Below, piece after piece: positions 38,628 through 64,000 of a stretch of 64,000 nt of DNA. Each line of letters begins with the position of its first letter. Within the stretch, counting starts at the first letter, position 1. The notes below the pieces were generated by a model. The model ran no database searches. It was given only the letters and a program-made list of their open reading frames with translations, and was not told the origin of the DNA. The position numbers were made by a program, and so were the translations under genes. The DNA lies in the NCBI GenBank assembly GCA_039801365.1, contig JBDRUN010000001.1, forward strand, positions 37,711-101,710. The letters run 5' to 3'. This stretch comes from a candidate division WOR-3 bacterium. GTDB taxonomy: Bacteria > Hydrothermota > Tepidihabitantia > Tepidihabitantales > Tepidihabitantaceae.

Positions 38628-38660
38628 GTTACAGCGTTACATGTTACAGGTTACAAGTTG
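38628..38660 (+). repeat. Short array of the GTTACAG heptamer (GTTACAG-CGTTACAT-GTTACAG-GTTACAA)
   Basis: Seen in sequence between nikR and the TonB-dependent receptor gene. It is the same heptamer as the arrays at 57003–57088 and 57584–57616. Confidence 0.7.
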
Positions 38661-49833: not shown

Positions 49834-50576
49834 ATTCCCGCATTCAGGGCACTAGCGAAGCTTACCCAGCCGATGTACGGCAGCATCAGAATACCGGCCG
49901 CTCTTGACACGCGGAAGAACAGAATCACGGTGACAAGTATCGCACACCACAGCTTCATTTTGGTTCCCGCACACACCCAGGGCAACTTTGCCGGCCTGAA
50001 CTCCATTGCCAGCACATCGTAATTCTCCTTATCAATGAATGCCCGACCCTCGACGGTCTGCTGCGACTTTCGCACCGGCATGAACCCAAGCACCCAGGCC
50101 GACCGCTCCAGACAAGTATCCTCACCCAAAAGCTCATAACGATAGACATGCTTAGTGTCGCGGAAAAACGGCATCATCGCCTCATCCTGCACCAACCCCT
50201 TGCGCCGGAGCGCCGCTATCAACCGCTCCCTGTTCCGGCCATCCACCCTCCTGCCGTTCAGCGTCACCTCAAGAAACTCTACCTGCGTCTGACCGGTACC
50301 AGCATACACACGTCGGCGACACGTTTCCTCCCGCAACAACCTGCCCCTGCTGTCGCGCTCCCAGTAGTGATAATCTGCCAGATAGCTCGCACTCTGGTAG
50401 CGAGTCGCCATCCCTGCCCTTCTCGCGAACACGCTGTCAACGATACTCTCCACCAACGGCAACGCTGCCGCCATCAGCGCGAAAACCATCCCGGTGCACA
50501 TACGACATAGAATTCCGATGATAGGCAGCGTGTCAAGTAAAGCGTATTGGCAAGGAAAAGGACAGCGGCCATCCAC
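49815..50576 (-). CDS. Hypothetical protein with C-terminal TM anchor
   Basis: 253-aa ORF. Only the final roughly 30 aa (…LMLPYIGWVSFASALNAGIWVLNR) are hydrophobic and TspO-C-terminus-like. The rest matches nothing I recognise. Confidence 0.35.
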   Translation of the reverse strand: MDGRCPFPCQYALLDTLPIIGILCRMCTGMVFALMAAALPLVESIVDSVFARRAGMATRYQSASYLADYHYWERDSRGRLLREETCRRRVYAGTGQTQVEFLEVTLNGRRVDGRNRERLIAALRRKGLVQDEAMMPFFRDTKHVYRYELLGEDTCLERSAWVLGFMPVRKSQQTVEGRAFIDKENYDVLAMEFRPAKLPWVCAGTKMKLWCAILVTVILFFRVSRAAGILMLPYIGWVSFASALNAGIWVLNR

Positions 50577-52248: not shown

Positions 52249-53844
52249 TCATTGACCCTCCTGCTTGCTGTTTCGCGACAGGCTCCGCAGTCGCGCCACT
52301 GCCTCGGCCACGAGCCTGCCCTGTTCTTCAATCGCGTCCAGCAATTGCTCCGGCGTGCGGGTATCTTCCACGACTTTGCGGTTCGGGTTCACCGCCTTCA
52401 AGTCGAGCCCACGTTTCTCCAGTTCCTCCCGCGTCACGGTCCAGCTCCTCTCGCTCTCGCCCCGCTGGGGCAGAAGCCGAAAGAAGTCCTCGAACCGGTC
52501 CCGGGTCAAGGGCTTCTTCTTTGTCACCTTCACGTCCGAGATGTCGTAGTACCAGACTTTCTCGGTCGGCCTGCCCTTAGTGAAGAACAATAGGTTCGCC
52601 TTCACGCCCGCACCCGCGTTGATGAACGTGCCCGGCGGCAGGCTGATGATGGCCCAAAGGTCGCACTCGTCCAATAGCTTCCGCTTGGTCTGCACGAAAG
52701 CGTTCTCGTTGGTGCGGAAGAGCACACCTTCATCCAGCACGATACCGGCGCGCCCGCCCGGCTTCAGGGAGTCAATTACATGCTGGAGAAACAGCACCTG
52801 CGTGGCGCTGGTTCTGTAAGCAAAACGGGTCTGAGCCTCTTTGCTCTCCTTCCCGCCGAATGGCGGATTCATCAGGATGACATCGTACAGGGAAGGCGCT
52901 CCGGTAAACAGACCGCCATATATTTCCTGTCCGGTCAGGGTATTGCCGTGCCAGATGTGCGGTTCGTCAATCTCGTGCAGGACCAGATTGGCAAGCGCAA
53001 TCGGATAAATGGTGTTGTCCTTCTCCCGGCCAAAGAAGGTTCTACGTTTGAGGATATCCATCTGGTCAGCGGTGACGTTCTCGCCCAGGCGGGCCCGGAT
53101 GTGCGCGTAGGTCTCGGCCAGGAATCCGCCGGTTCCGCAACACGGGTCGTACACCGTTTCTCCTACCTTCGGGTCTATTCCGCGCACCAGCACCCGGATA
53201 ACCTCGCGCGGTGTGAAAAACTGGCCGCCGTCATTGTTCTTCTCGCCCATCTTGAGCAAAAGACCTTCATACACCTGAGACAAGGCGAACACGTGGGTCT
53301 GGTCAACCGTCTCGTGCGACAGCTCGTTCACCTTGTCTAGCACGTCCAGGAGGTTCCGCTCGGTATCAATTCGCGTGCGCTCCACGCCGGAGAAGATTTC
53401 CGAGATAACCTTCTGCCGCGGGGTGGCGTTCGGCTTGTCCTTCAGCGCTTTCAGGTGTGGAATCAGGTCCCGGTTCACGAAGTCGTAGAATGCGTTGGTC
53501 GCGCCTTCCACCAGCGCCTTACGCTTCTTTCCGTCGGGCGCGGCCCAGTCGCGCCAGCGGTAGGGTGGTTTCAAAGACGGCGTGAACGGCACGGACAGCG
53601 CCTCGGCCTCAATCGCCTCGCGCTGTTCGCGCTCATCCAGAATCCGCAGGAAAAGAATCCAGGTCAGCTCCGGCACGTACTGCATCGCACCGGCGCAATT
53701 CGACCGGCGCATAATGTCGCAGATGGACTTCACAGCGGAATTGACCGAAGCGGGAGAGGCTAGGAGTTTTGGATTTTGGGTTTTGGATTTTGGATTGAGA
53801 GGGGAACGAGGACGATTCTGGGTTTTGGATTTTGGACTAGGCAT
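52249..53844 (-). CDS. hsdM: Type I restriction-modification system methyltransferase subunit HsdM
   Basis: HsdM_N-like …SICDIMRRSNCAGAMQYVPELTWILFLRILDE…. SAM motif DPCCGTGGFL. Catalytic NPPFG (ILMNPPFGGKE). The first roughly 40 codons (PKSKTQN…) are encoded by the TTTTGGA repeat array, so the start could instead be an internal codon. Confidence 0.85.
   Translation of the reverse strand: MPSPKSKTQNRPRSPLNPKSKTQNPKLLASPASVNSAVKSICDIMRRSNCAGAMQYVPELTWILFLRILDEREQREAIEAEALSVPFTPSLKPPYRWRDWAAPDGKKRKALVEGATNAFYDFVNRDLIPHLKALKDKPNATPRQKVISEIFSGVERTRIDTERNLLDVLDKVNELSHETVDQTHVFALSQVYEGLLLKMGEKNNDGGQFFTPREVIRVLVRGIDPKVGETVYDPCCGTGGFLAETYAHIRARLGENVTADQMDILKRRTFFGREKDNTIYPIALANLVLHEIDEPHIWHGNTLTGQEIYGGLFTGAPSLYDVILMNPPFGGKESKEAQTRFAYRTSATQVLFLQHVIDSLKPGGRAGIVLDEGVLFRTNENAFVQTKRKLLDECDLWAIISLPPGTFINAGAGVKANLLFFTKGRPTEKVWYYDISDVKVTKKKPLTRDRFEDFFRLLPQRGESERSWTVTREELEKRGLDLKAVNPNRKVVEDTRTPEQLLDAIEEQGRLVAEAVARLRSLSRNSKQEGQ
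53766..53838 (+). repeat. (TTTTGGA)n-type tandem array (GTTTTGGATTTTGGGTTTTGGATTTTGGATT … GGGTTTTGGATTTTGGAC)
   Basis: Seen in sequence between the Fic stop and the hsdM start. It overlaps the N-terminal codons of the long hsdM ORF. Confidence 0.8.
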
Positions 53845-53850
53845 GACGGT

Positions 53851-54855
53851 TCACCTCAACAGATACTTACCCGATCTCCGCGTACCGGAGCGCTTTACCA
53901 GCCCGGCCGCAACAAGCGGTTTCAGAAGGTCCAGGGCACCCTGTTTCGAGACGCCGAGCGCCTCGCGTATCTCGCGCGGGCTCATCGCCTGGCGGTCGCG
54001 CAGGAGCGCCAGCAACTGCTCCTGTTTTGGCCGCAGCACCACTTTCTCCGTGCTCTGGTCGGCGGCCAGCCGCTGGATGCGCAACCAGACCCGTTCCAGC
54101 ACGAGTCGCAACCCGGTGGCGCAGTATTCCAGCCAGCCGGTGAGGTTGCCGCCCTGCCGGCCGACCTCACGCAGGGCCTCGTAGTAACGCGGTCGGTCCT
54201 CCCAGAAGTACTCGTCCACCGAAAAGATGTGATGCGTGTCGAAACCGCGGCGATAAAGCTCCCACAGGGAAAGAAGCCGGCCGACCCGGCCATTGCCGTC
54301 GCCGAATGGATGAATGTCCTCGAAACGATGATGCACGATGGGGGACGAAATGACCGCAGACCAGTCCCGCGCCGAGCCGTTCCACCAGTCCAAAAGGTCG
54401 GACATCAGAGGTTCAACTTGCTCGGGTGGCGGCGGCTTGTGCGGCCCAACCCATACCTGGATGCGGCGATATGCGCCCTCCTGGCCCTGGTCCATCACAC
54501 CCCGGCAGGCAATTAGATGAAGCCGTAGAATGTCCCGGTGCACGAGCCGGCGCTTGGCCGCGTGCGTCTCGATGTAACGCAGGGCCGCGAAGTAGTTCAG
54601 CACCTCCTGCCGCGAACGGTCCGCAATGGCCGGAACGTCACGGCCTTGCGCGAGGTCACGTACCTGCTCCTGAGTCAAAGGATTCCCCTCGATGGCAGTC
54701 GAACTGTGCGTGTTTCTCACCCTTGCGTCTTGCTGAAGCCGGGGAATCCACGGCACCTGCACGGTTGCGGCCAGCACCCTTGCCCGCAGTGCGGCGATTT
54801 CCTCAATGAGCGCAACCAACCGCGCCGTTACCTCAAACGCCGGTACGTATGCCAC
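53851..54855 (-). CDS. Fic/DOC family protein (putative AMPylase) with C-terminal wHTH
   Basis: Canonical Fic motif HPFGDGNGRVGR. C-terminal winged-helix (…MSPREIREALGVSKQGALDLLKPLVAAGLV…). Confidence 0.85.
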   Translation of the reverse strand: MAYVPAFEVTARLVALIEEIAALRARVLAATVQVPWIPRLQQDARVRNTHSSTAIEGNPLTQEQVRDLAQGRDVPAIADRSRQEVLNYFAALRYIETHAAKRRLVHRDILRLHLIACRGVMDQGQEGAYRRIQVWVGPHKPPPPEQVEPLMSDLLDWWNGSARDWSAVISSPIVHHRFEDIHPFGDGNGRVGRLLSLWELYRRGFDTHHIFSVDEYFWEDRPRYYEALREVGRQGGNLTGWLEYCATGLRLVLERVWLRIQRLAADQSTEKVVLRPKQEQLLALLRDRQAMSPREIREALGVSKQGALDLLKPLVAAGLVKRSGTRRSGKYLLR

Positions 54856-54913
54856 GGTTCTACTCTACAATAAGTCAAGTATAAGTCAAGTTATTAGTCA
54901 AGCCAGGACTGCA

Positions 54914-54942
54914 ATTTTGGATTTTGGGTTTTGGATTTTGGA
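54914..54942 (+). repeat. (TTTTGGA)n-type tandem array
   Basis: AATTTTGGATTTTGGGTTTTGGATTTTGGA, immediately 3' of the four-helix-bundle gene. Confidence 0.8.
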
Positions 54943-55299
54943 TTAGGCGCGGGAGCGTCTCAAAGTCTTGATGGATGCTACCGTCATCGCCAAGATGTTG
55001 TCGGCTTCAGCCATCAGGTTTTCCGTATCCGGCTCGGATGCAAGGCGAGCGGCGACGAGCAGGTCCAGCCAATAGATGACCTCATCGGCTTCCTCCTCAA
55101 CGATTGCCAGTTTGGCAAGCATATCGGCCCGTGACCGGGCCCGGCAGGCCGCGCGGTAATTCGCGCCGACCGACGTGGCGCACCGCAATAGTTGCCGGCC
55201 GATGACGTCTGCGCAACGGCTCCGCGGCAGCTCATCAACCAGCCGGATGGCCTCCAACCCGAGTTTTCTGGTCCTATCCTTGAACTCCTGCTCAGTCAC
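54943..55299 (-). CDS. Four-helix-bundle protein (TIGR02436 family; '23S rRNA intervening-sequence protein')
   Basis: 118 aa. …EAIRLVDELPRSRCADVIGRQLLRCATSVGANYRAACRARSRADMLAKLAIVEEEADEVIYWLDL… is the characteristic pattern. Confidence 0.8.
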   Translation of the reverse strand: MTEQEFKDRTRKLGLEAIRLVDELPRSRCADVIGRQLLRCATSVGANYRAACRARSRADMLAKLAIVEEEADEVIYWLDLLVAARLASEPDTENLMAEADNILAMTVASIKTLRRSRA

Positions 55300-55352
55300 C
55301 GCGCCTCCTCAACCCAGAATCCGCGACCCTCGCTCTTCTGCTCCTTCTCTGC

Positions 55353-55436
55353 CAATCCAAAATCCAAAATCGGCAATCCAAAATCATCTGCGCCCCCATT
55401 TCCGCCAATCCAAAATCCCCAATCCAAAATCCAAAA
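55353..55436 (-). repeat. (TTTTGGA)n-type array in inverted orientation (CCAAAATCCAAAATC … CCAAAATCCAAAATC)
   Basis: Seen in sequence between the hsdS stop and the four-helix-bundle start. It is the reverse complement of the 54914–54942 array. Confidence 0.8.
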
Positions 55437-55997
55437 TCAGATGTCTCCTCTAAACGCCTTCCGCAACAGCGCGGCCGGCAGTTTGTTGATTGTTTCCAAC
55501 TGGGCCTCAAGGGCCAGTCGGTGCTTCTCGGCCTCGGCCATACGTTCATTCAGCATCCCCGCAATCCGCCTCTGCTCGGAAAGGGGAGGAAGGGGAAGGA
55601 CAATCTCAGCCGCGACCTTCTGGTTCAGCTTGGCCCTCGTCGCACCGGCGACCATATCGCCCACATCGGGCCGGATTCGGATGGCCAGCAAGCAGTAGGC
55701 AAAGTCAATGCTATCAGGTCTTGGTCTGAGCACGTGAGCGTGGTTGTTGACCCAGTACTTGCCAGCCACAGCATAGGCGATAGGTCTGTCAGCGGATCCA
55801 AAGAACCCGCCGTCCTCGGCGAGCAATATCAGCGGTTCATCGAAAAGGTATCCGTCTATCCAACCCACTTGGCCATTGGCACCATAGTAGGGGTATAGCT
55901 CTGCCTGTTTCTTTCCCGCGATGCGCCGCATTCTGTCGGGTTCATTGACGGGCACTCTCCGGCCGTCTAAGAACTCGCACACCTCTCCCAGCTTCAC
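55437..55997 (-). CDS. hsdS: Type I RM specificity subunit HsdS (single target-recognition domain, half-size)
   Basis: 186 aa. One TRD followed by the conserved coiled-coil region …LPPLSEQRRIAGMLNERMAEAEKHRLALEAQLETINKLPAALLRKAF. Confidence 0.75.
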   Translation of the reverse strand: MKLGEVCEFLDGRRVPVNEPDRMRRIAGKKQAELYPYYGANGQVGWIDGYLFDEPLILLAEDGGFFGSADRPIAYAVAGKYWVNNHAHVLRPRPDSIDFAYCLLAIRIRPDVGDMVAGATRAKLNQKVAAEIVLPLPPLSEQRRIAGMLNERMAEAEKHRLALEAQLETINKLPAALLRKAFRGDI

Positions 55998-56046
55998 CCA
56001 TCGCCAGCCGGGGGGGAAGGGGGCGTTGAACGCCTGTGCTCAAGAC

Positions 56047-56955
56047 CTATGCCTCCTCGTAGCTGCGCTGCAGCAAGGTCTGTGCCTTCTGCAGGCTTGT
56101 CTGGTCGGTAACCACTACTTCCAAGTCGCCCGTGCCCCAATGACCAATCTGGCTGACGTCGCGGGTGAACCCAGTCTCCAGCTTCACCGACTTGGGGTCG
56201 AGCTTGAGATACAGGGTAAGCGCCTTGCGGCTGAATTCCACGCAGGCGAAGTTCTTGATGCGGCGGAAGGCCACGTAGAGCTTGAGTTGCTTCTCGGTCA
56301 CGTCGTCGCCCAGGGCAAGTATGAACGCGCGCAGAGAGTCGTAAAGGTCGCGCATCTGAGGACTCATTTCCCTTAGCCAAGTGGCAACGGTCTTGTCTGT
56401 CCCGCCGGCTGAAACGCGGCTGCGGCGGCGGACAGACGCCGGCTCTTCGCCTGTCGCTCTGTAGACAAGGTCGAGTGCCAAGAGCTCGTCGCCGAACCTT
56501 CGGTAGCGCACCAGTTCCACGTTGCGGCCCATCTGCTTGACCGCGTGTTCGTCGTACTTGGTAAAGTCGGCAGCGATGCAGAGCAGGCGCGGGCCGGTCC
56601 AGTCTATTGCATTGGCCGCCTTCTGCCCCAGTTTCTTCTGTACCAGCAACTGGAACTCGGCCTTGTGGTCGAGAAGCCAGTCCAGGTAGAAAAGGCCCTG
56701 GTTGATGACATTCTCGTTCGTCGCCTTCTTGTATTCGATGATGACCGGGCAGTTGTTCTCGTCTATGCCGAGCGTGTCAATGCGGCCGGCGTGGCTCTTG
56801 CCGGTAGAGTATTCCGAGTCAAGGAAGCGAACCCCGAGCATCGTCTCCAGGTTCTTTTCGACGACGTCCTGAAGTGATTTCTCAAGCGGCGTTGCCTTGC
56901 CCGGCAGTTCGGTCGCCTTGTTGCCGCTCAGGCGGAAGAGTTTGATTTCGCTCAT
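56047..56955 (-). CDS. PD-(D/E)xK nuclease-fold protein with C-terminal domain of unknown function
   Basis: N-terminal …GRIDTLGIDENNCPVIIEYKK… looks like the D…(D/E)xK core. Total 302 aa. It is embedded in the RM locus. Confidence 0.5.
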   Translation of the reverse strand: MSEIKLFRLSGNKATELPGKATPLEKSLQDVVEKNLETMLGVRFLDSEYSTGKSHAGRIDTLGIDENNCPVIIEYKKATNENVINQGLFYLDWLLDHKAEFQLLVQKKLGQKAANAIDWTGPRLLCIAADFTKYDEHAVKQMGRNVELVRYRRFGDELLALDLVYRATGEEPASVRRRSRVSAGGTDKTVATWLREMSPQMRDLYDSLRAFILALGDDVTEKQLKLYVAFRRIKNFACVEFSRKALTLYLKLDPKSVKLETGFTRDVSQIGHWGTGDLEVVVTDQTSLQKAQTLLQRSYEEA

Positions 56956-57002
56956 CGGACGCTCCTTTCAGAAAGAGCTGGGGAACAGGGCAGAGTCACG
57001 GC

Positions 57003-57088
57003 GTTACAGATTACAGCAAGAAAGTTACAGGTTACAGAGTTACAGGTCACAGCAGAAAGGTTACAAGTTACAGGGTTACAGGTTACAG
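57003..57088 (+). repeat. About 10 tandem copies of the GTTACAG heptamer with short spacers
   Basis: Seen in sequence, e.g. GTTACAG-ATTACAG-caagaaa-GTTACAG-GTTACAG-aGTTACAG. It ends 2 bp before the stop of the second four-helix-bundle gene. Confidence 0.85.
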
Positions 57089-57090
57089 GA

Positions 57091-57576
57091 CTATTGGTCA
57101 TTGGCTTTGCGTTTGCGTTGTTCGGCCAGTTCGTCTAGAATCCGACTCCTTTCTTCCGCGGCTGCCACCGCCTGTTGTTGTCTTGCGTGTTGTTTCTGGC
57201 CCGGCATTCCGGAGCCCTGAAGGTATTGGATGAATCTGTATAGCATCGCGCTGAGCCGGCGGCATTGCGCACTCGCCGAATCGCAGTCTTTGGCGCTGAT
57301 ATAGCCCTGGTCACGCGCAATGCCAAGCTGGGCCCGGACTTCGCCGCAGGAGCCTTTGGCGACGTAGAGAAACTGCACGAGTTCCTGCGTCGAACCGCGT
57401 TCGTGCCCTTCCGCGATGTTGGACATGATGGAGACCGCGGCCCGGCGAATCTGGTCAACAAGGCTGCGGTCCCTGGTGAATGCCGGTTGCCGCGTGAGAG
57501 CATAGACCTGGTTGGTCAGTTCTCGCGCCTGCTGGTAGACCTTCAGTTCCTCGAACTTCTGTACCGTTTCTTTCAT
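57091..57576 (-). CDS. Four-helix-bundle protein (TIGR02436 family), second copy
   Basis: Start reset to MKETVQKFEELKVYQQARELTNQVYALT…. The core …IRRAAVSIMSNIAEGHERGSTQELVQFLYVAKGSCGEVRAQL… matches the family. Confidence 0.8.
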   Translation of the reverse strand: MKETVQKFEELKVYQQARELTNQVYALTRQPAFTRDRSLVDQIRRAAVSIMSNIAEGHERGSTQELVQFLYVAKGSCGEVRAQLGIARDQGYISAKDCDSASAQCRRLSAMLYRFIQYLQGSGMPGQKQHARQQQAVAAAEERSRILDELAEQRKRKANDQ

Positions 57577-57583
57577 CTCCCCC

Positions 57584-57616
57584 TCTCTGTAACTCTGTAA
57601 CCCTGTAACCTGTAAC
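57584..57616 (-). repeat. GTTACAG heptamer array in inverted orientation (plus strand reads CTGTAAC x4)
   Basis: Seen in sequence immediately 5' of the second four-helix-bundle gene. It is the reverse complement of the 57003–57088 array. Confidence 0.8.
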
Positions 57617-57622
57617 ACATCT

Positions 57623-58075
57623 CTACGCCGCAAACAGTCTGACCTTGGTTTCTTTGAGTATTTTGGCCGGCTTGCCCAGTTCGGCTAGCGCTTTCACTCC
57701 GCCGGCACGTTTGACCTTCGGGGTCTGGAATACTTCCGGGTTTTCCAGTCCTTCGGTGCCCGCAAGGGCAAACTGGGCAGCAAGGGCTTTGAGGGTAGCG
57801 GCCGCGTTTTCGGGCAGGCTGGCAAGCCACTCTGCATGTTTATAGGAGAATGCCTCAGCCCGCTCTGCGCGCGTGCGCGGAGCAAGGCCGTAGCCGAGTT
57901 CGGCCAGGACGTCGTACAGGTCATAGTCGTCCATTTCTTCCACGCGCTGCACCAGCGAGGGTGAGTAGCCGGCGCTAACGAGGGCATCGATGAGTGCGCG
58001 GCGGCGGGCAGGTTCTACCAAGCGGTCGCGGAACGCCTCGAGCGTCGGCGCTTCGGCCACGAGTTTGGCGGCCAT
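57623..58075 (-). pseudogene. hsdR: Detached C-terminal domain of type I restriction enzyme HsdR (EcoEI_R_C-like)
   Basis: 150-aa ORF. …VEEMDDYDLYDVLAELGYG… resembles the HsdR C-terminal domain. It is separated from the helicase fragment by 9 bp and a frame break. Confidence 0.55.
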
Positions 58076-58084
58076 CCGTTCCTT

Positions 58085-59098
58085 CTATTCTTCTACTGTG
58101 ACGGGTATTGCCCTGCCATCCACTTCGGTCAGAATGTATTTGCCGGCCGGGGTGACGCGGACCTCGAATCCTTCTACGCGGATGGGCGGTTCAGGCGGAG
58201 GCGAAGGCTCGCGCTTTTCGCTTGATCTAGTCGGTCGGGACAGGAACTCTTCGCCGAATAGCCGAGTAGCGTTGGTGTAGTCGTAGACCGTGAATGCTAG
58301 TTTGCCCGAAGGCGGGTCAATGCGCGTGCCCCGGCCTACCATCTGGTAGAAAGCGATAGGCGATTTGACATACTTAAAGAAGGCGATGTTGCGCACACAG
58401 GGCACGTCCACGCCGGTGGTCAACAGGTCAACGGTGGTGGCGATGAAGTGGTGGCGCGAGGCACCGCGGAAGTCAGGAAGCTGGTCGTTACCCGAAGCAG
58501 AGGCGGTGCATTTGAAAGCGTAGGGTTCTGCCCGGGGGTGGCCGTGCTCTTTGCACCAGCGGGCGTACAGGTTGTTCATTTCCGCAGCCACATCGTCCGC
58601 ATGTCGGTCGCGGGTGCAGAAGATGATTGTTTTCTGTTCCGGGCCGCCGGTTTCGCACAGATAGGCAAAGAGGTCGGCGCACATGGCAGACACCCGGTCG
58701 GGCAGCAGAATGCGGTTTTCGTAGTCGGTTTTTTCGTAGAGCTGCCTCAACCGGTCGGAAGAAACCGGCTGGCCGGTGTCCGCATCAACCGGTTCGCGGG
58801 CCAAAATGTCGTCAATGGTGATACCGGTGTCGTCCAGGTTGACCCGGCCTTTCTGTATCAGGCAGGCGGCAAGGTATCCGTCTTCTATCGCCTGGGCCAT
58901 GTCGTATTCGTACACCGGCTCGCCGAAGTACGCAAGGTTGTCAGCGGTAATCTTCGCGTCTGCCTGCGCCTCGCGGGTCTTCTCGGTAATCTTGAGCGAA
59001 CGGGGCGTAGCGGTGAGTCCGATGTGTACCGCATCCGGGTTACGGGTAAGTACCTGAGACCATTTGCCCCAGGCTGAGCGATGGCATTCGTCAATCAC
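58085..59098 (-). pseudogene. hsdR: HsdR helicase-core fragment (starts at motif II; N-terminal nuclease domain and motif I are missing)
   Basis: The ORF begins MIDECHRS (DECH box). It then runs GLTATP (motif III) and the …QMVGRGTR… arginine finger (motif VI). In-frame stops lie immediately upstream, and no ORF follows for about 330 bp. Confidence 0.7.
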
Positions 59099-59426
59099 AA
59101 TGTGGCTGAAGTGATTCTCCGGATAGAACTCGGTGAGGAAGCTGGCGTCGTCGTCTTCGCGGGCAATACCCAGAGTTTGGTAGGTGGCGACGTGGATGCG
59201 GGCGTTGCGGGCGTGGTTCTTGCCGTCCGGGTAGCAAGTAACTCAATGACGATCGTTCCCCTCTGACCTATTCTGCTTCGGACTCAGCTTTCTCCTCCAA
59301 TTGAGAACAGTACTAACCCACGGTTTCGACTTTCTTCAGCTCAGAAAGCGGGGGCGTCCCTGGTATTCCCAAGACCTGACCCCAACCGGCCGGCTGAGAA
59401 TCATCCGCTGTGTCACAAGAACTTTC

Positions 59427-60224
59427 CTACTTCGGCGGCCAGAAGACACCGAGCACCAAGAAACTCCGTGGGTGCAGAAATACATTGCCTACATAGAACC
59501 ACGTGTCCTTGTCCGACCTCAGCATCTCGCCTTCCCACTTCTGTCTGACCTTGCGCAGCACGTCCTGCTCGCAGTTCTCTCGGTCCCGGAGTGTGCGGTA
59601 CAACTGCATCAACTCCCAGTCAATGACGGACAGGTCGTGTCCTCGGCAGCGTTCCTCGCCTGCGCACCTGAAGCGGTAGCCAAAACGGTAGGGTATGGGT
59701 TCAATTGCCTGCTTGGCTCCGGCAAAGGCGTCAAGTTGGTCATAGAACGCAGCCCTGAACTCAGCGCTGGTAGTATCAACCGGCTCGGCGTAGAACCTCA
59801 CGTTCTCCGGCTTGACCAAGCCCAGCGATGTGGCCGACTTTGCCTGCTCGTCCTTCAGGGCGCAGAGCGACGCGGCCCTAAGCGGCAATACGATCTCACG
59901 CCTTCTGGCCCACTTGCGCTTGGTGTCCCACGCCTGCTCGACAACCCTGATGCTGTTGCGGTCTACACGGAAGCTCTCCGGACGGGTGTCTTTCGACGTT
60001 CGGCTCACTCGAGCCTCGATGACGGAGTACTTGCTGAACCGCTGCCACGAGTTCAAGTCCCGGAAGGGCACCGGATAGAGCCTAATCCACCGTTTCGCTT
60101 CCAGGTCAATGCCGGCTACGCACACGGTCTCGGTGTATTTCCGGCTCGGATTGGGATAGGTCTTGACCGTGACGAGGATGCGGCGGGTCTGCCAGTCCAA
60201 AACTACAAGTGCCGGACCACGAAC
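59427..60224 (-). CDS. Hypothetical protein (defence-island gene, no recognised family)
   Basis: Long ORF (…VKTYPNPSRKYTETVCVAGIDLEAKRWIRLYPVPFRDL…). The annotated start overlaps the DUF488 gene by 109 bp, so I propose an internal GTG. The start remains uncertain. Confidence 0.4.
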   Translation of the reverse strand, partial: VRGPALVVLDWQTRRILVTVKTYPNPSRKYTETVCVAGIDLEAKRWIRLYPVPFRDLNSWQRFSKYSVIEARVSRTSKDTRPESFRVDRNSIRVVEQAWDTKRKWARRREIVLPLRAASLCALKDEQAKSATSLGLVKPENVRFYAEPVDTTSAEFRAAFYDQLDAFAGAKQAIEPIPYRFGYRFRCAGEERCRGHDLSVIDWELMQLYRTLRDRENCEQDVLRKVRQKWEGEMLRSDKDTWFYVGNVFLHPRSFLVLGVFWPPK

Positions 60225-60721
60225 TGATGGCCGTTGCGTCCCGCCAAGACCAGAGCCAACAGCGACCTGTGACACTGCTTCGGGTCGCGCTCGTAGCACA
60301 GGAGACAACACGGCTTGGCCACAGCCATCTGGTAGAGAGATTCCACAGAGTCATCCACCGTGGCGACGTAGGCAAGATACTGACGGGCAAGTTCCTCGAA
60401 GCTGCCAGTCATCCTGTACTGCTTACGCACAGCTACAGGTGTTCCCAACTCGCGCAGGCTCACGTATTGGATACCATTCAAAGGAAGGAAGGTTGCCAGA
60501 GCCGACTTGGAAAAGCCCCGCCTGCGGCTCAGCGGCAATTGACGAACGTCCGCCACGACGGCCACCTTTTCCTGCTTCAGCACAGCAATGAACTCATCGG
60601 TCGTCCGCCCTTCATAACCGGCTGTCAACAGCGGAAACACGGGGCACGCCACGCCACAGCCTACTCCTATCCGACCGTCGGTCAAGCCCGTCCGGTTATC
60701 GATGACACCAGGGGTTGTCAA
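60203..60721 (-). CDS. DUF488-family protein
   Basis: …TAGYEGRTTDEFIAVLKQEKVAVVADVRQLPLSRRRGFSKSALATFL…GIQYVSLRELG… fits the DUF488 (YeaO-like) signature. Confidence 0.65.
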   Translation of the reverse strand: MTTPGVIDNRTGLTDGRIGVGCGVACPVFPLLTAGYEGRTTDEFIAVLKQEKVAVVADVRQLPLSRRRGFSKSALATFLPLNGIQYVSLRELGTPVAVRKQYRMTGSFEELARQYLAYVATVDDSVESLYQMAVAKPCCLLCYERDPKQCHRSLLALVLAGRNGHQFVVRHL

Positions 60722-60934
60722 AGAACCGGCCGGTGTCCATTCTTCACACTCAGCTTCCCCCAGGTCGGCCGCGTGTCAAACAGAGAAAGGGTTCCAGGGG
60801 CGAGAGGCCAAGGGTTCGGTTTTGGGAAGAGGGAGCAGGACGCTGGGGCTAGTAACTGTCGGCCCGCAAAGCGCAAGATTCAGAACCTGACCCCGGGTTC
60901 CTCACTGTTGCGGACCCCGAAGCTGTAATACCGC

Positions 60935-63658
60935 TCAGTCCTGTACGGTGAACTCTCCTCCAAGCCGCAGCTCGCGGAGGGCAGCGTTGAGTTGCTGGCG
61001 GACGGCTGGGTCCTTGAGCTTGGCCTTGATGAAGACCTCGATCTCGACGCCATCGGCGCCGGCCAGTCTGGCCAGAACGCGATGGCTGAGCAGATTCCAC
61101 ATGTCGCGTGGGATGTTGCCACGCCACTCGACCGTCGTCGGCTGGACGGTCTTGGCTTCCGGCTTCGGCGGCTCAATGATGACGGTCGTATCGCCGCCCG
61201 GCGGCGCGAAGATGTCGCCCGGCTCCGTTACGCCGCCTGTCTGCGTACCGGCCTTCGCGACCTTCGCCCGCTCGGGCAAGAGTAGAAACGTTTCGTGGTC
61301 GAACTTGACCTCAGCCGGGTCAACGGTCTCTCTGAACCATATTCTGTGCAAGTGCAGCTCGTCCTTGCCGACACCCATGCCCAACGCGCCCTGCGGTACG
61401 GCCTTCTGTATCAGCGCCAATAGAGCTTCGTCGGCGCGCTCCAGCCGCGTGAGCGACCCTTGGAAGAACGCCGCCTTCAGACTGGCGAGCGACCACGCGC
61501 CTGTCTTCTTCAACGCTTGGGGCCACTTTCGCTCAACGTACGTCGGCCCGATTTCCCGGTTCAGCAAGTTGGCTTGGCGCATCCGGGACAGTATCGCGCC
61601 AGTGATGCCGCGTGCTTCGCTGGGATGCATCATCCCCAACGTCAGCTTCTGCAGGGACCCTGCCTTTGCGTCCCAATACAGAAGGCTGCTGTATAGACTC
61701 CAGACTCTCTCTTCAACCCTGGAGTACGCCTTCTTGACCTCTGTCCTCGCCATCTGCTGCTCGTGTGGCTCCAGTTCGCCCATGCTCCCTGCTTCCACCT
61801 CGTCGGCGATGACGGTCCACGCCATCCAGTCAGCGACGTCCTTCTGCAGGCCGGTGGCAGACTCAGGCATCACCCATAAGACTGCGCCCGGATACTGGCG
61901 TGGGGACTGACCGCAGTTCACAGTCCAGGCATTCAACTGCTCAGTCTGCCTCTGATCCAATTCGCTGTCAGGCGTCCCGACCACCAGCCGCAGCACCGGC
62001 CGGTCGGATACCTCGGCCGAGTCCTTGGGGAAGAACTGGGCCTCAATCTTAGCGTTCTTGCGGAACACCTGCGTGACCACGGCGCGCGTCTGCTTCTCCA
62101 CGTCGGCCGGGTTCAGGCCAGCCTTGCGGTCGGCGTGTATCTTGCGCAAGGTGGGCGAGCAGCCAAACTTCCACCCACCGGTCCCGACCGGACGCAAATA
62201 GTAGCAGCGGCTGACCAGGGCTTGGACGGCAGTATCTACAAGCGTTGTCTCGGTTTCCGCATCTCCAAGCGCGAACCGCAGGTCGGAAAGCGTCGCTACT
62301 TTGTCGGAAACCATGCCGCCACATGACTCAAACAGTAGCGCTGTGGCCACGCGCTGGTGCAGGTTCGTCCTGCCGACGGTGTCGCTCAGCTCCTTGTCCA
62401 GAGCAACCGCAACTGCGTTCTCACCGGAGATGTCATAGTTGATAGCGTGTTCCAGCCGCGTTTCGCCCATCTGTTCCAACACCTTGGACCGAAATTCCCG
62501 ATTACTCAGCGGTGCGGAGCCAAGGGTTATCAGTGGCTCTCTGCGTGCGCAGGCATAGCCTTCCCTGGCCGCTATGGCAATCCACATTCCAAGCATCACC
62601 AAAGTACCACGAGTCTGCTGAAATGAGGGCAGCGAAGCCCACTTGCGCTGGAACACGGTCAAAGTGCTAGGGTGAAACGGATAACATGCCTCAAATCGTT
62701 TCCTTATGACTTCTTCACCAAAATTGGCGAACTCCGCGGGCAGCCGATCCCGGCGTTCGAACACCCAGCGGGCGTACTGCCGTGCCGCGGCCTGCTGCAT
62801 GCTCTTGCGGCCCGGGTCTTCAAACAGCCTGCGCCGCACAATCTCGGAAATCTCCTCTGGGTCATTCGCCAGAAGCGGCTGGCCCACCCGGTCAGTCAGC
62901 TTCGACAGCTTGATTTGCCACTCGCATAGCTCATCGGTCATCTCGGTCGGCGACGCAGGCAGGCTGAACACGCCAACCGCATTCTGCCGGGCCGTTAGCG
63001 CCGTAGTGAGATTCTGCAGGAACGAATGGAACTGAGTAGCCAGATTCCCATAGCGGCCGATGAAGTTGAGCGTCTCATCAAACAAGAACAGAATCGGCGC
63101 GTCAACCAGGGCAAAGAGTTTCTCCAGGACTTCTGTGCCGGGTGCCCGCTGCTTGAAATCCTCGCCGATGAGCTTCCGGCCAGCGTCGCCGGCCAGTTGC
63201 ACCGCCACGTCAATCCATGGCGTCTCGCTGCCTGACTTCTGGTCCCAGGAGTTACCCACGAACACGGCGACCCGCGCCTTCGGCACCTGCTTCAGGCCTA
63301 TGGCAGAAAGCAGCTCCGGCACACCGGGATATGCTTGGGCCGCTGGCCCGGACTTGGCCAGATGATAGAGCGCCGCCAACGTGTGAGTCTTGCCGCCGCC
63401 GAACTGGGTGAGCATGGAAAGCACCGGCGCGGTGCCGGAAGTCTCGCCGGCCAGTCGGCGCAGCACTTTGCCGCAGTAGTCGGTAACAAGCGCCTTGGTG
63501 AAGTACGTGCGGCCAAAGAATTGCTCCGGGTTCTTGTAGTCATCCGGCGCTCTGCCCGAGACTATCTGGTCCAGATGCACCGCGAACTCGCTCGGGTCCA
63601 GTGACCGGCCCTCGCGCAATTCCTTACGTGGTGTTGCTACCTTGTACCATGGTTCCAT
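60935..63658 (-). CDS. DUF499-family ATPase (predicted defence-system NTPase)
   Basis: 907 aa. The N-terminus MEPWYKVATPRKELREGRSLDPSEFAVHLDQIV…FFGRTYFT… and the P-loop FGGGKTHT are what I recall as the DUF499 hallmark. Confidence 0.75.
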   Translation of the reverse strand: MEPWYKVATPRKELREGRSLDPSEFAVHLDQIVSGRAPDDYKNPEQFFGRTYFTKALVTDYCGKVLRRLAGETSGTAPVLSMLTQFGGGKTHTLAALYHLAKSGPAAQAYPGVPELLSAIGLKQVPKARVAVFVGNSWDQKSGSETPWIDVAVQLAGDAGRKLIGEDFKQRAPGTEVLEKLFALVDAPILFLFDETLNFIGRYGNLATQFHSFLQNLTTALTARQNAVGVFSLPASPTEMTDELCEWQIKLSKLTDRVGQPLLANDPEEISEIVRRRLFEDPGRKSMQQAAARQYARWVFERRDRLPAEFANFGEEVIRKRFEACYPFHPSTLTVFQRKWASLPSFQQTRGTLVMLGMWIAIAAREGYACARREPLITLGSAPLSNREFRSKVLEQMGETRLEHAINYDISGENAVAVALDKELSDTVGRTNLHQRVATALLFESCGGMVSDKVATLSDLRFALGDAETETTLVDTAVQALVSRCYYLRPVGTGGWKFGCSPTLRKIHADRKAGLNPADVEKQTRAVVTQVFRKNAKIEAQFFPKDSAEVSDRPVLRLVVGTPDSELDQRQTEQLNAWTVNCGQSPRQYPGAVLWVMPESATGLQKDVADWMAWTVIADEVEAGSMGELEPHEQQMARTEVKKAYSRVEERVWSLYSSLLYWDAKAGSLQKLTLGMMHPSEARGITGAILSRMRQANLLNREIGPTYVERKWPQALKKTGAWSLASLKAAFFQGSLTRLERADEALLALIQKAVPQGALGMGVGKDELHLHRIWFRETVDPAEVKFDHETFLLLPERAKVAKAGTQTGGVTEPGDIFAPPGGDTTVIIEPPKPEAKTVQPTTVEWRGNIPRDMWNLLSHRVLARLAGADGVEIEVFIKAKLKDPAVRQQLNAALRELRLGGEFTVQD

Positions 63659-63670
63659 TGTCCATCCTCT

Positions 63671-64000
63671 CTACTTGCCCGCCTGCTTCGTTGCGGGCAG
63701 GCCCATTAGCGCCTGTAAGCCCTCAAGCCAACGCCGCTCCTCACTCTTCTCATGATACAACGCGGTCAACGCGAGCGCGAGCCGCTCGAACCTGCGGCCA
63801 CGCTTCCGCTCATCCTCCAGCAACTGCCGCAGCAGGGTGGTCTGTCCGGCTCGGAACAGGAGCATCGCCACGTGCAGCCGGTCCAGAGTCGTCTGCTCCT
63901 CGATGCGACCGGCGACTCCGCGTTTGGCAGCTACGACCTGCCGCTGCACCTCTTCTTTACCAAAGAGCTTCAACTGCGGACTCGGTAGCGTGAACTCGCG
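63671..64000 (-). CDS. C-terminal part of an upstream gene running off the window end
   Basis: The reading frame stays open to position 64000. The last roughly 110 aa have no recognisable motif. It is positioned where a partner, e.g. a methyltransferase, would be expected upstream of the DUF499 gene. Confidence 0.4.
   Translation of the reverse strand, partial: REFTLPSPQLKLFGKEEVQRQVVAAKRGVAGRIEEQTTLDRLHVAMLLFRAGQTTLLRQLLEDERKRGRRFERLALALTALYHEKSEERRWLEGLQALMGLPATKQAGK

What the first reader, a model, noticed from the sequence alone, without database searches (positions are those of the whole stretch)
52249..59098. Decayed type I RM locus: intact hsdM and half-size hsdS, but hsdR survives only as a motif-II-onward fragment plus a detached C-terminal domain
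hsdM (NPPFG, full length) and a single-TRD hsdS look functional. The only HsdR-like sequence begins at the DECH box, so the nuclease domain and Walker A are missing. Its C-terminal domain is a separate ORF, and about 330 bp of stop-rich sequence lie upstream. This looks like an orphaned methyltransferase (M2S2) left after loss of restriction. The locus also hosts Fic, two four-helix-bundle genes and a PD-(D/E)xK gene. Operon order is R–(inserts)–S–(inserts)–M on the minus strand.
Basis: partly seen in the sequence, partly recalled or inferred. Interest (0 to 1): 0.6.

Follow-up and report, generated by a model that had tools for sequence, protein, structure and literature searches.

The report
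Type I restriction locus, dead hsdR
A bacterial DNA restriction-modification gene cluster has recently lost its cutting subunit (front third deleted, plus a premature stop) but keeps intact methylase and specificity genes; this is an ordinary kind of decay, and the more unusual feature is two small four-helix-bundle gene cassettes bracketed by inverted short-repeat arrays.

Summary
On the minus strand of this candidate division WOR-3 contig the order is hsdR remnant, FHB2, PDC-S18, half-size hsdS, FHB1, SoFic-like Fic, hsdM.

- **hsdR lesions.** HsdR homology starts at 59231, about 45 codons before the DECH box, not at it. About 254 of ~790 residues are missing: the nuclease domain, Walker A and motif Ia. 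They are found nowhere in the window. The "detached" C-terminal domain is in the same frame, separated by one TAG. The closest relative (L084, 92-97% nt identity) has TAC (Tyr) there.
- **Recent inactivation.** The remnant deviates at only 2 of 146 highly conserved columns, which is typical of the listed homologues.
- **hsdM and hsdS.** hsdM keeps its catalytic motifs (dN/dS 0.08 against L084). Half-size hsdS looks recurrent in this family (gene spacing in at least 4 of 80 related loci), so it is not decay. The R-inserts-S-inserts-M layout is the family norm.
- **Best reading.** This is a restriction-dead locus that probably still methylates DNA, in a mosaic defence island. That is ordinary.
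- **Side finding.** Both FHB genes (PF05635) are flanked by inverted heptamer arrays predicted to form 33-35 bp stems. The pattern recurs in 62 metagenomic FHB loci.

The parts
52249..53844 (-). hsdM, 531 aa, intact. Motif I DPCCGTGGF is at 53122-53148 and motif IV NPPFG at 52855-52869. The first ~20 codons of the ORF overlap a TCCAAAA heptamer array, so the true start may lie further in.
   Evidence: Pfam N6_Mtase 1.6e-59 plus HsdM_N. PADLOC MTase_I 8.7e-188. Homologues in 80 loci align from residue ~19-24 to ~520-528. dN/dS against L084 is 0.08. Motif coordinates.
53767..53836 (-). Third TCCAAAA (coding-strand) heptamer array, between the Fic stop codon and the body of hsdM.
   Evidence: TRF; sequence read; pattern found 14 times against 0.37 expected.
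53851..54855 (-). Fic-domain protein with a C-terminal winged helix (SoFic-like), 334 aa. The Fic motif HPFGDGNGRVGR at 54277-54312 is intact.
   Evidence: Pfam Fic 3.9e-16 plus MarR_2. PADLOC SoFic 4.5e-57. 99.6% nt identity to L084. Fic homologues sit between hsdS and hsdM in L037 and L069, and just upstream of hsdM in L042.
54862..54902 (-). Promoter-like element directly upstream of Fic: CTTGACTTATA repeated about 3 times, with TTGACT-16-TAGAGT. Candidate internal promoter for Fic-hsdM.
   Evidence: TRF period 11; consensus scan (no more sites than chance overall); conserved in L084.
54914..54944 (-). Right-hand array (TCCAAAA)x4 of the FHB1 cassette.
54943..55299 (-). FHB1: four-helix-bundle protein (PF05635, 23S rRNA IVS protein / Avd-like), 118 aa.
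   Evidence: Pfam 6.5e-16; same gene at the same place in L084.
55354..55438 (-). Left-hand arrays (GATTTTG, two blocks) of the FHB1 cassette, complementary to the TCCAAAA arrays. The predicted terminal stem is about 33 bp.
   Evidence: TRF; sequence; RNA fold z = -5.8, 0 of 100 shuffles as stable.
55437..55997 (-). Half-size hsdS, 186 aa: one target-recognition domain plus one conserved helical region. The last 60 residues are nearly identical to L084's full-size HsdS; the TRD is unrelated to either L084 TRD.
   Evidence: Pfam Methylase_S 8.3e-13. PADLOC Specificity_I 6.7e-29. BLASTP against L084 HsdS. PDB HsdS matches cover only residues 88-186. Spacing consistent with half-size hsdS just before hsdM in L011, L014, L017, L047.
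56047..56955 (-). PDC-S18 candidate defence gene (N-terminal NucS-like PD-(D/E)xK plus DUF5655), 302 aa, intact.
   Evidence: Pfam DUF5655 5e-17, NucS_C 5e-4. PADLOC PDC-S18 5.9e-149. A 62%-identical homologue directly follows hsdR in L051. L084 keeps only a 62-aa ORF aligning with its 5' end, then a GmrSD-HNH gene.
57003..57089 (-). Right-hand array (CTGTAAC, about 11 units on the coding strand) of the FHB2 cassette.
   Evidence: TRF; sequence; pattern found 8 times against 0.21 expected.
57091..57576 (-). FHB2: four-helix-bundle protein (PF05635), 161 aa from the ATG at 57576. The listed 180-aa ORF reads through the upstream array.
   Evidence: Pfam 5.3e-35; RBS and ATG read; L084 orthologue.
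57585..57616 (-). Left-hand array (GTTACAG)x4 of the FHB2 cassette. The predicted terminal stem is about 35 bp.
   Evidence: TRF; RNA fold z = -5.0, 0 of 20 shuffles as stable.
57623..59231 (-). hsdR pseudogene remnant, equivalent to residues ~255-790 of a ~790-aa HsdR. Retained motifs: ATYQTL 59171-59188, DECH 59081-59092, TATP 59003-59014, IIFC 58616-58636, motif V 58406-58438, motif VI QMVGRGTR 58322-58345, and EcoEI_R_C 57623-58075. Missing: PD-(D/E)xK nuclease, Walker A (GxGKT) and motif Ia.
   Evidence: tblastn; alignment A1; Pfam and PADLOC; full-length relatives are 785-797 aa; motif coordinates.
58085..58087 (-). In-frame TAG nonsense codon inside hsdR. It is TAC (Tyr) in L084, and Tyr in the nine homologues of alignment A1.
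59232..59426 (-). Breakpoint and 195-bp spacer. DNA and protein homology to hsdR stops at 59231/59232. The spacer matches nothing in the window or the related loci, and no terminator is predicted in it.
59427..60721 (-). Upstream neighbour that replaces the hsdR 5' end: PDC-M19 candidate defence pair (DUF488 = M19A at 60203-60721; DuOB-like M19B at 59427-60311). An HmaC/DUF499 ATPase follows at 60935-63658.
   Evidence: Pfam. PADLOC M19B 3.9e-61, HmaC 2.3e-98, M19A 6e-30. None of these genes occurs next to hsdR in the 80 related loci.

Best explanation
This is a type I restriction-modification operon with an EcoEI_R_C-type HsdR and family gene order hsdR-hsdS-hsdM, sitting in a defence island of a candidate division WOR-3 bacterium.

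**What happened to hsdR.** Its restriction subunit gene has recently been inactivated by two independent lesions.
1. A rearrangement replaced the first ~254 codons (nuclease domain, Walker A, motif Ia, and presumably the promoter) with an unrelated block carrying PDC-M19 and Hma-type defence genes. The junction is at 59231/59232.
2. A C->G substitution turned a conserved Tyr codon into TAG, cutting off the C-terminal domain. Established knowledge of type I enzymes says this domain docks HsdR onto the methyltransferase core.

No restriction can come from this gene.

**What remains.** hsdM and the half-size hsdS are intact. The inference is that two HsdS halves dimerise with two HsdM, as shown for truncated and natural half-HsdS of classical type I systems. 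That would give a methyltransferase recognising a symmetric bipartite target, so the locus now acts as a solitary m6A methyltransferase. Transcription would come from read-through of the upstream same-strand genes, from an internal promoter-like element before Fic-hsdM, or both.

**The 'inserts'.** The embedded SoFic-like and PDC-S18 genes are intact, independent cargo of a kind that recurs inside operons of this family. The two four-helix-bundle genes are self-contained cassettes bounded by inverted heptamer arrays. They sit in intercistronic spacers and do not disrupt any hsd reading frame.

**Shown versus inferred.** Shown: the gene map, both lesions, the intactness and conservation of M and S, and the family comparison. 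Inferred: methyltransferase activity, M2S2 stoichiometry, palindromic specificity, and the transcription route.
For: **Truncation**
- tblastn of full-length relatives matches only from residue ~254/260/114 onward (59230..57626). No N-terminal match exists anywhere in the window.
- Alignment A1 shows the nuclease domain, GxGKT and motif Ia are absent.
- DNA homology to L004 and L030 stops at 59231.
- All 80 related loci have the N-terminal 253 residues contiguous with the rest.
- Full-length relatives are 785-797 aa.

**Nonsense codon**
- TAG lies in frame.
- L084 has TAC and a continuous 271-aa ORF across the site.

**Recent loss**
- The remnant deviates at only 2 of 146 columns that are >=95% conserved. 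The median among 119 homologues is about 2.
- dN/dS against L084 is 0.20.

**M and S intact**
- Domain and HMM hits and catalytic motifs.
- hsdM dN/dS is 0.08.
- The hsdS C-terminal helix is nearly identical to L084's.
- Spacing consistent with half-size hsdS is seen in L011, L014, L017, L047 and others.

**Upstream block is foreign to hsdR context**
- PADLOC identifies M19A, M19B and HmaC. None of them appears in the 80 loci.

**TAG is a real stop in this genome**
- It also ends the FHB2, hsdR and M19B reading frames.
Against: - Only 64 kb of a 137-kb contig of a MAG is visible. A second, intact hsdR elsewhere cannot be excluded.
- A chimeric assembly join at 59232 cannot be excluded without reads.
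- No methylome or expression data exist.
- With the hsdR promoter gone, expression of hsdS in particular is unproven. The promoter scan found no more sites than chance.
- dN/dS of the remnant (0.20) is not clearly elevated, so relaxed selection is not directly demonstrated. It is only compatible with recency.
- L084's contig ends inside hsdR, so the ancestral 5' state in this lineage is not seen.
Confidence: 0.72

Rival explanations
1. Assembly or sequencing artefact. The contig is chimeric at about 59232 (two strain or genome fragments joined), the TAG is a consensus error or minor variant, and the organism really has an intact hsdR and a working restriction enzyme.
For: The source is a metagenome-assembled genome. 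The closest relative's contig breaks inside hsdR (L084 ends at window-equivalent 58440), which suggests this region is hard to assemble or varies between strains. The remnant is otherwise pristine.
Against: Two independent lesions would both have to be errors. No repeat of 15 nt or more exists at the junction that could seed a misjoin. GC content is similar on both sides. Substitution errors to a stop codon at a conserved Tyr are rare in consensus assemblies.
Confidence: 0.1
2. Restriction is supplied in trans. Another hsdR of a compatible family elsewhere in the genome assembles with this M/S core, so the system is not orphaned.
For: Only part of the genome is visible. Many bacteria carry several type I loci.
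Against: There is no other HsdR-like gene in the 64-kb window. No hit listed exceeds 76% identity, and none of the best 120 N-terminal hits lies on the 137-kb source contig. HsdR-core assembly is family-specific (established knowledge).
Confidence: 0.08
3. The whole hsd module is silent. Loss of the hsdR 5' end removed the operon promoter, so hsdS (and perhaps hsdM) are no longer expressed and are simply too young to show decay.
For: In the family the order is R-S-M, with hsdR first. The inactivation is recent. The promoter scan found no more sites than chance.
Against: Upstream genes are on the same strand, 195 bp away, with no predicted terminator between them, so read-through is plausible. 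A conserved promoter-like repeat precedes Fic-hsdM. hsdM shows strong purifying selection against L084, although most of that divergence may predate the lesion.
Confidence: 0.12
4. The M/S core is retained as a sensor or partner for the embedded effectors (SoFic-like, PDC-S18), by analogy with EcoprrI keeping the PrrC anticodon nuclease latent. Loss of hsdR would then be tolerated because defence now runs through abortive-infection effectors.
For: Fic and PDC-S18 homologues recur inside hsd operons of this family (L037, L042, L069, L051). Both are intact here, and Fic is 99.6% identical to L084's copy. Both match PADLOC defence models.
Against: There is no evidence of physical or regulatory coupling. 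SoFic is described as a stand-alone system. L084 swaps PDC-S18 for GmrSD, which suggests interchangeable cargo rather than a co-adapted partner.
Confidence: 0.08

Closest known systems
Type I R-M systems with EcoEI_R_C-type HsdR (EcoAI/EcoEI-like, 'type IB' domain signature)
   Same: HsdM has N6_Mtase and HsdM_N domains. HsdS has a TRD plus a conserved helix. The HsdR remnant has SF2 motifs II-VI and a PF08463 C-terminal domain. It is 62-76% identical to hundreds of ~790-aa HsdR proteins.
   Different: HsdR lacks the nuclease domain, Walker A and motif Ia, and carries a nonsense codon. As I recall it, the classical type IA/IB order is hsdR-hsdM-hsdS, whereas here it is R-S-M. HsdS is half-size. 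I did not test classical type IB membership (complementation, hybridisation).
Solitary or degenerate type I methyltransferases (hsdMS retained after hsdR inactivation), and half-HsdS dimers such as truncated EcoDXXI/EcoR124I HsdS
   Same: Intact M plus S beside a dead R. A single-TRD HsdS is expected to dimerise and specify a symmetric target. The precedents are from my own knowledge of the type I literature, not re-read here.
   Different: Activity and target are untested. The hsdR loss here is by replacement of the 5' third with foreign defence genes plus a point nonsense mutation, and it is very recent.
EcoprrI-PrrC (an abortive-infection effector embedded in a type I hsd operon)
   Same: Unrelated defence effectors (SoFic-like, PDC-S18) sit between hsd genes, and this placement recurs in relatives.
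   Different: The effector families are different. No evidence of functional coupling exists, and the cargo differs between the two closest genomes (PDC-S18 against GmrSD-HNH).
23S rRNA intervening sequences carrying an S23p/PF05635 ORF (Coxiella, Leptospira)
   Same: A PF05635 ORF is bounded by terminal inverted repeats predicted to form a stem of about 30 bp. The Coxiella IVS has a 28-bp stem cut by RNase III (PMC4990558). Here the stems are 33-35 bp.
   Different: The cassettes lie in intercistronic spacers of a protein-coding operon, not in 23S rRNA helix 25 or 45. The inverted repeats are tandem arrays of 7-9-nt units. There is no evidence of RNase III cleavage, and G.U and A.C mismatch counts are equal (67 against 63), so selection on sense-strand RNA pairing is not demonstrated.

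Membership tests
Complete type I restriction-modification system | HsdM with an N6-adenine methyltransferase fold and catalytic motifs I and IV (NPPF/Y) | tested here: met
   N6_Mtase 1.6e-59, MTase_I 8.7e-188, DPCCGTGGF and NPPFG present.
Complete type I restriction-modification system | HsdS with target-recognition domain(s) and conserved helical spacer region(s) | tested here: met
   Methylase_S 8.3e-13, Specificity_I 6.7e-29. There is one TRD plus one helix, so it is half-size.
Complete type I restriction-modification system | HsdR as one polypeptide with a PD-(D/E)xK nuclease, SF2 motor motifs I-VI and a C-terminal assembly domain | tested here: not met
   Residues ~1-254 (nuclease, Walker A, Ia) are absent from the window. 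An in-frame TAG precedes the C-terminal domain.
Solitary (orphan) type I methyltransferase | Intact hsdM and hsdS | tested here: met
Solitary (orphan) type I methyltransferase | No functional cognate hsdR anywhere in the genome | not testable with these tools
   Only the 64-kb window is available, and contig look-ups failed. None of the best 120 N-terminal hits is on the 137-kb contig, which is only a weak negative.
Solitary (orphan) type I methyltransferase | Demonstrable m6A methylation of a bipartite target | not testable with these tools
   Needs methylome data or expression in a host.
SoFic (Fic-domain defence gene) | Match to the SoFic model and an intact Fic motif HxFx(D/E)GNGRxxR | tested here: met
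   PADLOC SoFic 4.5e-57; HPFGDGNGRVGR at 54277-54312. Defence activity was not tested.
PDC-S18 (PADLOC candidate system) | Full-length match to the PDC-S18 profile | tested here: met
   5.9e-149, residues 1-301 against profile positions 18-322 of 365.
23S rRNA intervening sequence (IVS) element | PF05635 ORF bounded by terminal inverted repeats that can form a long stem | tested here: met
23S rRNA intervening sequence (IVS) element | Inserted in a 23S rRNA helix and excised from the rRNA precursor by RNase III | tested here: not met
   The cassettes lie between protein-coding genes, and no rRNA or other Rfam family is found in 47-64 kb. RNase III cleavage itself cannot be tested here.

The most novel reading that the evidence does not exclude
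The four-helix-bundle (PF05635/Avd-like) genes are the cargo of a widespread and, as far as my library searches show, undescribed class of IVS-like cassettes. Each ORF is bracketed by inverted tandem arrays of a cassette-specific 7-9-nt unit. The cassettes lodge in intercistronic spacers of operons: here twice in a type I R-M operon, elsewhere between what look like toxin and antitoxin ORFs (from their translations; not checked). The arrays would act either as RNase III-type processing stems that cut the host polycistronic mRNA, or as binding sites for the cassette's own FHB protein. A solo GTTACAG array at 38636-38656 hints that the protein could also act in trans.
Probability: 0.3. Interest if true: 0.6.

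Novelty: new member of a known kind. Interest (0 to 1): 0.27.

Why it matters
The flagged finding itself matters little. Loss of hsdR with retention of hsdM/hsdS is a familiar fate of type I systems. This example mainly shows how quickly defence islands are remodelled. Two WOR-3 genomes that are 92-99.6% identical across the locus differ in four ways:
- hsdS is half-size with one TRD in one genome and full-size with two different TRDs in the other.
- The embedded effector is PDC-S18 in one and GmrSD-HNH in the other.
- A 1.4-kb downstream block is present in only one.
- hsdR carries the TAG in the window, while L084 reads through that site; L084's 5' end is not visible.

For annotation, the locus should be scored as methyltransferase-only, not as an active restriction barrier.

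The side observation is more useful. PF05635 genes are systematically bracketed by inverted, cassette-specific short-repeat arrays. This gives a concrete, testable handle on a large protein family of unknown function that also includes DGR Avd and the 23S rRNA IVS proteins.

Tried and rejected
1. **Source contig look-ups.** Fetching the source contig through exact-protein look-ups failed for P0001, the 907-aa DUF499 protein and NCBI's 362-aa call. What lies beyond 64000 remains unseen.

2. **Apparent nuclease-less HsdR variants.** The first homologue search returned only proteins of 674 aa or less, many starting after the nuclease domain, which suggested a natural nuclease-less or split HsdR. 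I rejected this. The ceiling appears to be imposed by the search (it coincides with about 1.75x the query length), because a longer query returned 785-797-aa proteins. The 'split' cases L001 and L002 are frameshifts within a continuous hsdR.

3. **Clustered break points.** I considered that N-terminal HsdR fragments ending near residue 250-285 on long contigs mark a recurrent break or insertion hot spot at the window's breakpoint. Their ends are heterogeneous frameshifts, and the set is selected by the length cap. Not pursued.

4. **5' hsdR fragment elsewhere on the contig.** I searched with the N-terminal 255 aa of the closest WOR-3 HsdR. None of the best 120 hits maps to a 137183-bp contig. 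This is only a weak negative.

5. **Relaxed selection.** dN/dS for the remnant is 0.20, against 0.08-0.26 for neighbouring genes, and private substitutions at conserved columns are 2 of 146. No decay signal beyond the two lesions, so the loss is recent.

6. **Cause of the junction.** I looked for repeats, IS ends, tRNA genes or known RNA families that could explain it. None were found.

7. **RNA or DNA level for the arrays.** G.U against A.C mismatches are 67 against 63 (p=0.79), which is uninformative. RNAduplex energies on 150-nt flanks were too noisy, so I replaced them with a longest-exact-inverted-match permutation test.

8. **Query alignment too diverse.** A three-sequence alignment worked.

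9. **Literature.** Searches for FHB/IVS-protein cassettes in R-M operons or mRNAs found only the rRNA-IVS work and a DGR review.

Full report
**Gene map**

The minus strand of 52.2-59.3 kb carries the following genes:
- hsdM, 52249-53844, 531 aa.
- A Fic/winged-helix protein, 53851-54855. PADLOC SoFic 4.5e-57.
- FHB1, a four-helix-bundle PF05635 gene, 54943-55299.
- hsdS, 55437-55997, 186 aa.
- A DUF5655/NucS-like gene, 56047-56955. PADLOC PDC-S18 5.9e-149.
- FHB2, a second PF05635 gene. Its true ATG is at 57576 and its stop at 57091.
- HsdR-like sequence from 57623 to 59231.

Immediately upstream on the same strand lie a PDC-M19 pair (DuOB-like M19B 59427-60311; DUF488 M19A 60203-60721) and an HmaC/DUF499 ATPase at 60935-63658. 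Exact-sequence look-up identifies the source as a 137,183-bp contig of a candidate division WOR-3 MAG, proteins MEO0080732-743.

**The hsdR remnant**

Reading the frame upstream of the listed 337-aa ORF gives …VTCYPDGKNHARNARIHVATYQTLGIAREDDDASFLTEFYPENHFSHIVIDECH…, preceded by an in-frame TGA at 59243-59245.

tblastn of full-length relatives against the whole window matches only 59230..57626. That corresponds to P0002 residues 254-661 and P0082 residues 114-663, and the alignment runs straight through the supposed ORF boundary. Nothing in the window matches residues 1-253.

The multiple alignment shows what is missing and what is kept:
- Missing: the PD-(D/E)xK nuclease domain, the GxGKT Walker A and motif Ia.
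- Kept: DECH, TATP, motifs IV-VI and the EcoEI_R_C domain.

At the DNA level, similarity to the closest genome-collection relatives (L004, also WOR-3; L030) begins abruptly at 59231. The 195 bp between that point and the M19B stop codon match nothing in the window or the fetched loci.

Full-length family members are 785-797 aa, so about 254 residues are gone. An apparent ceiling of 674 aa in my first search looked like an effect of the search itself, not biology, because the longer query returned full-length proteins.

**The 'detached' C-terminal domain**

It is in the same reading frame as the helicase part. The two are separated by one TAG at 58085-58087, where the nine homologues in alignment A1 have Tyr (…VTVEEYK…).

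The closest relative I could find is L084, a 19.5-kb contig of another WOR-3 MAG, recovered through a 90%-cluster mate of HsdM. It is 92% identical over this stretch, has TAC at the site, and has one continuous 271-aa ORF.

TAG is a genuine stop in this genome, since it also ends FHB2, hsdR and M19B. hsdR therefore carries two independent inactivating lesions.

**How old is the damage?**

Against 119 homologues, the remnant departs from the consensus at only 2 of 146 columns that are >=95% conserved: the Tyr->stop and one Trp->Leu. That equals the median for the 119 listed homologues. dN/dS against L084 is 0.20 (dS 0.24), within the range of neighbouring intact genes. The inactivation is therefore recent, and 'decayed' overstates it.

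**Is the rest of the locus decayed?**

No.
- hsdM has motif I (DPCCGTGGF) and motif IV (NPPFG). It aligns over residues ~20-525 with homologues in 80 loci. Its dN/dS against L084 is 0.08.
- hsdS is a clean single unit of one TRD plus one helix. Its last 60 residues are nearly identical to L084's HsdS, while its TRD is unrelated to either of L084's two TRDs.

**Family comparison**

I fetched 80 loci encoding relatives of this HsdR, from many phyla, and mapped the window's proteins onto them.
- All 80 have the N-terminal 253 residues contiguous with the rest. L072, and the separately fetched L001-L003, show a frameshift there.
- Wherever hsdS and hsdM are detected, the order is R-S-M, with variable gaps between genes.
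- Spacing consistent with half-size hsdS directly before hsdM occurs in at least L011, L014, L017 and L047.
- Fic homologues lie between hsdS and hsdM in L037 and L069, and just upstream of hsdM in L042.
- A PDC-S18 homologue directly follows hsdR in L051.
- FHB genes lie downstream of hsdR in L004 (after an intervening ORF) and directly after it in L073.
- None of the loci has PDC-M19 or Hma genes next to hsdR.

Only the hsdR truncation is exceptional.

**Mosaic evolution**

L084 and the window are colinear at 92-97% identity over 58440-56799 and 55597-52218, but they differ in several ways:
- L084 has a GmrSD-HNH gene where the window has most of PDC-S18, and keeps a 62-aa ORF aligning with the window's PDC-S18 5' end.
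- L084 has a full-size 416-aa hsdS.
- L084 has an extra 1.4 kb after hsdM.

Synonymous divergence ranges from 0.012 (Fic) to 0.24 (hsdR), which indicates recombination.

**Most likely function**

- Restriction from this hsdR is impossible. There is no nuclease, no ATP-binding loop, and the docking domain is cut off.
- By analogy with characterised half-HsdS proteins (my knowledge of the type I literature), two HsdS halves and two HsdM should form a methyltransferase for a symmetric bipartite site.
- Expression is plausible through read-through from the same-strand M19 genes, because no terminator is predicted in the 195-bp spacer. A conserved promoter-like triple repeat (CTTGACTTATA x3 with TTGACT-16-TAGAGT) lies before Fic-hsdM. 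Expression remains unproven.
- I cannot exclude an assembly chimera, a second hsdR elsewhere, or a silent locus. A search with an N-terminal HsdR query found no hit on the 137-kb contig among the best 120, which is weak negative evidence only.

**Side finding: the FHB cassettes**

On the coding strand the layout reads as follows:
- hsdR-stop, (GTTACAG)x4, RBS, FHB2, (CTGTAAC)x~11, PDC-S18.
- hsdS-stop, (GATTTTG) arrays, RBS, FHB1, (TCCAAAA)x4, Fic, (TCCAAAA)x~7, hsdM.

Evidence within the window:
- The arrays are far above chance: 8 matches against 0.21 expected, and 14 against 0.37.
- Each cassette is predicted to fold with a 33-35-bp terminal stem (z = -5.0 and -5.8).

Evidence from other genomes:
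- FHB genes in unrelated genomes show the same arrangement with different units: GGTTCAAG/CTTGAACC in L063 and L073, GGAGTAA/TTACTCC in L061, GAGGAAG/CTTCCTC in L004.
- I analysed 62 metagenomic FHB2-like loci that had enough flank.
- In that set, 46 have an upstream array and 45 a downstream array.
- The longest exact inverted match between a gene's own two flanks has median 10 nt. The median is 6 nt for mismatched pairs and for distal flanks.
- The observed mean is 10.18, against a permutation mean of 6.85 (SD 0.24). The maximum of 2000 permutations was 7.76.

Comparison and limits:
- This resembles the S23p-encoding 23S rRNA intervening sequences, whose 28-bp terminal stem is cut by RNase III (PMC4990558). 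Here, however, the cassettes sit in mRNA intercistronic spacers.
- G.U and A.C mismatches are equally common (67 against 63). The data therefore do not say whether the arrays work as sense-RNA stems or as DNA or protein-binding repeats.
- Only 2 of the 80 metagenomic loci are next to type I genes, so the cassettes are not R-M-specific.
- My library searches found no description of this arrangement. That is not proof of novelty.

**Verdict**

The flagged feature is real and mostly read correctly. It is an ordinary, recently restriction-dead type I locus that probably persists as a methyltransferase.

Noticed in passing
window 57003-57616 and 53767-55438; also L004, L061, L063, L073, L084, L085-L164: PF05635 four-helix-bundle genes are bracketed by inverted tandem arrays of cassette-specific 7-9-nt units (GTTACAG/CTGTAAC and GATTTTG/CAAAATC here; most often GTTCAAnn/nnTTGAAC elsewhere). 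This gives predicted stems of about 33-35 bp, like rRNA IVS elements but in mRNA spacers. A permutation test on 62 metagenomic loci is highly significant.
   Followed up: yes
window 38636-38656 (+), upstream of ORF 38779-40593: A solo GTTACAG-type array (about 3 units) sits in an intergenic region with no FHB gene or inverted partner nearby. It uses the same unit as the FHB2 cassette. It could be a footprint or a trans-acting binding site.
   Followed up: partly
window 30495-30532: A (CCCTTGAA)x4.9 array, the commonest FHB-flank unit in other genomes, lies inside the ORF 30312-31613(-). No FHB gene is nearby.
   Followed up: no
window 53767-53844: The annotated hsdM ORF begins inside a TCCAAAA heptamer array, which encodes MPSPKSKTQN…NPKSKTQNPK. 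Homologues align only from residue ~19-24, so the real start codon or N-terminus is uncertain. L084 has the same arrangement.
   Followed up: partly
window 54862-54902: An 11-nt unit CTTGACTTATA repeated about 3 times, with a TTGACT-16-TAGAGT promoter-like site, lies directly upstream of Fic. It is conserved in L084 and looks like a promoter or operator for Fic-hsdM.
   Followed up: partly
L084 1478-4242 and 7427-8766, against window 55997-56799 and 52218/52150: The two closest WOR-3 loci differ by cassette swaps. One has PDC-S18 plus half-size hsdS; the other has a 62-aa ORF matching the PDC-S18 5' end, GmrSD-HNH and a full-size hsdS with two different TRDs. L084 also has a 1.4-kb two-gene block after hsdM (one gene is weakly PD-(D/E)xK-like). 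dS ranges from 0.012 (Fic) to 0.24 (hsdR), which indicates recombination.
   Followed up: yes
L001 9580-10010; L002/L003 9579-10016; L072 about 9807: Relatives on long contigs have hsdR split by a frameshift between the nuclease and motor domains. Several N-terminal-only fragments with frameshifted tails also exist on long contigs (P0247, P0343, P0351, P0353). hsdR inactivation, or assembly error, appears to recur in this family.
   Followed up: partly
window 49815-50576 (-): A 253-aa ORF matches only the last ~50 positions of the TspO/MBR profile, through its C-terminal residues 199-250. It is probably another gene remnant or fusion at the edge of the island. Synteny with L084 ends at 51556.
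   Followed up: no
window 59427-63973 (-): Further defence genes lie directly upstream: a PDC-M19 pair (DUF488 plus a DuOB-like protein) and an HmaC/DUF499 ATPase. The latter probably belongs to an Hma system that continues past the window end.
   Followed up: partly
L089, L090, L096, L097, L111, L117, L123, L135, L138: In many metagenomic loci the FHB cassette sits between two conserved small ORFs. The upstream ORF ends …YYDR(V/I)RR(R)WF(L/W)QG…, and the downstream one begins …HPGRILLEEFLAP.G(I/V)S…, which looks like a HigA-type antitoxin. This suggests a preferred intercistronic site in toxin-antitoxin pairs.
   Followed up: no
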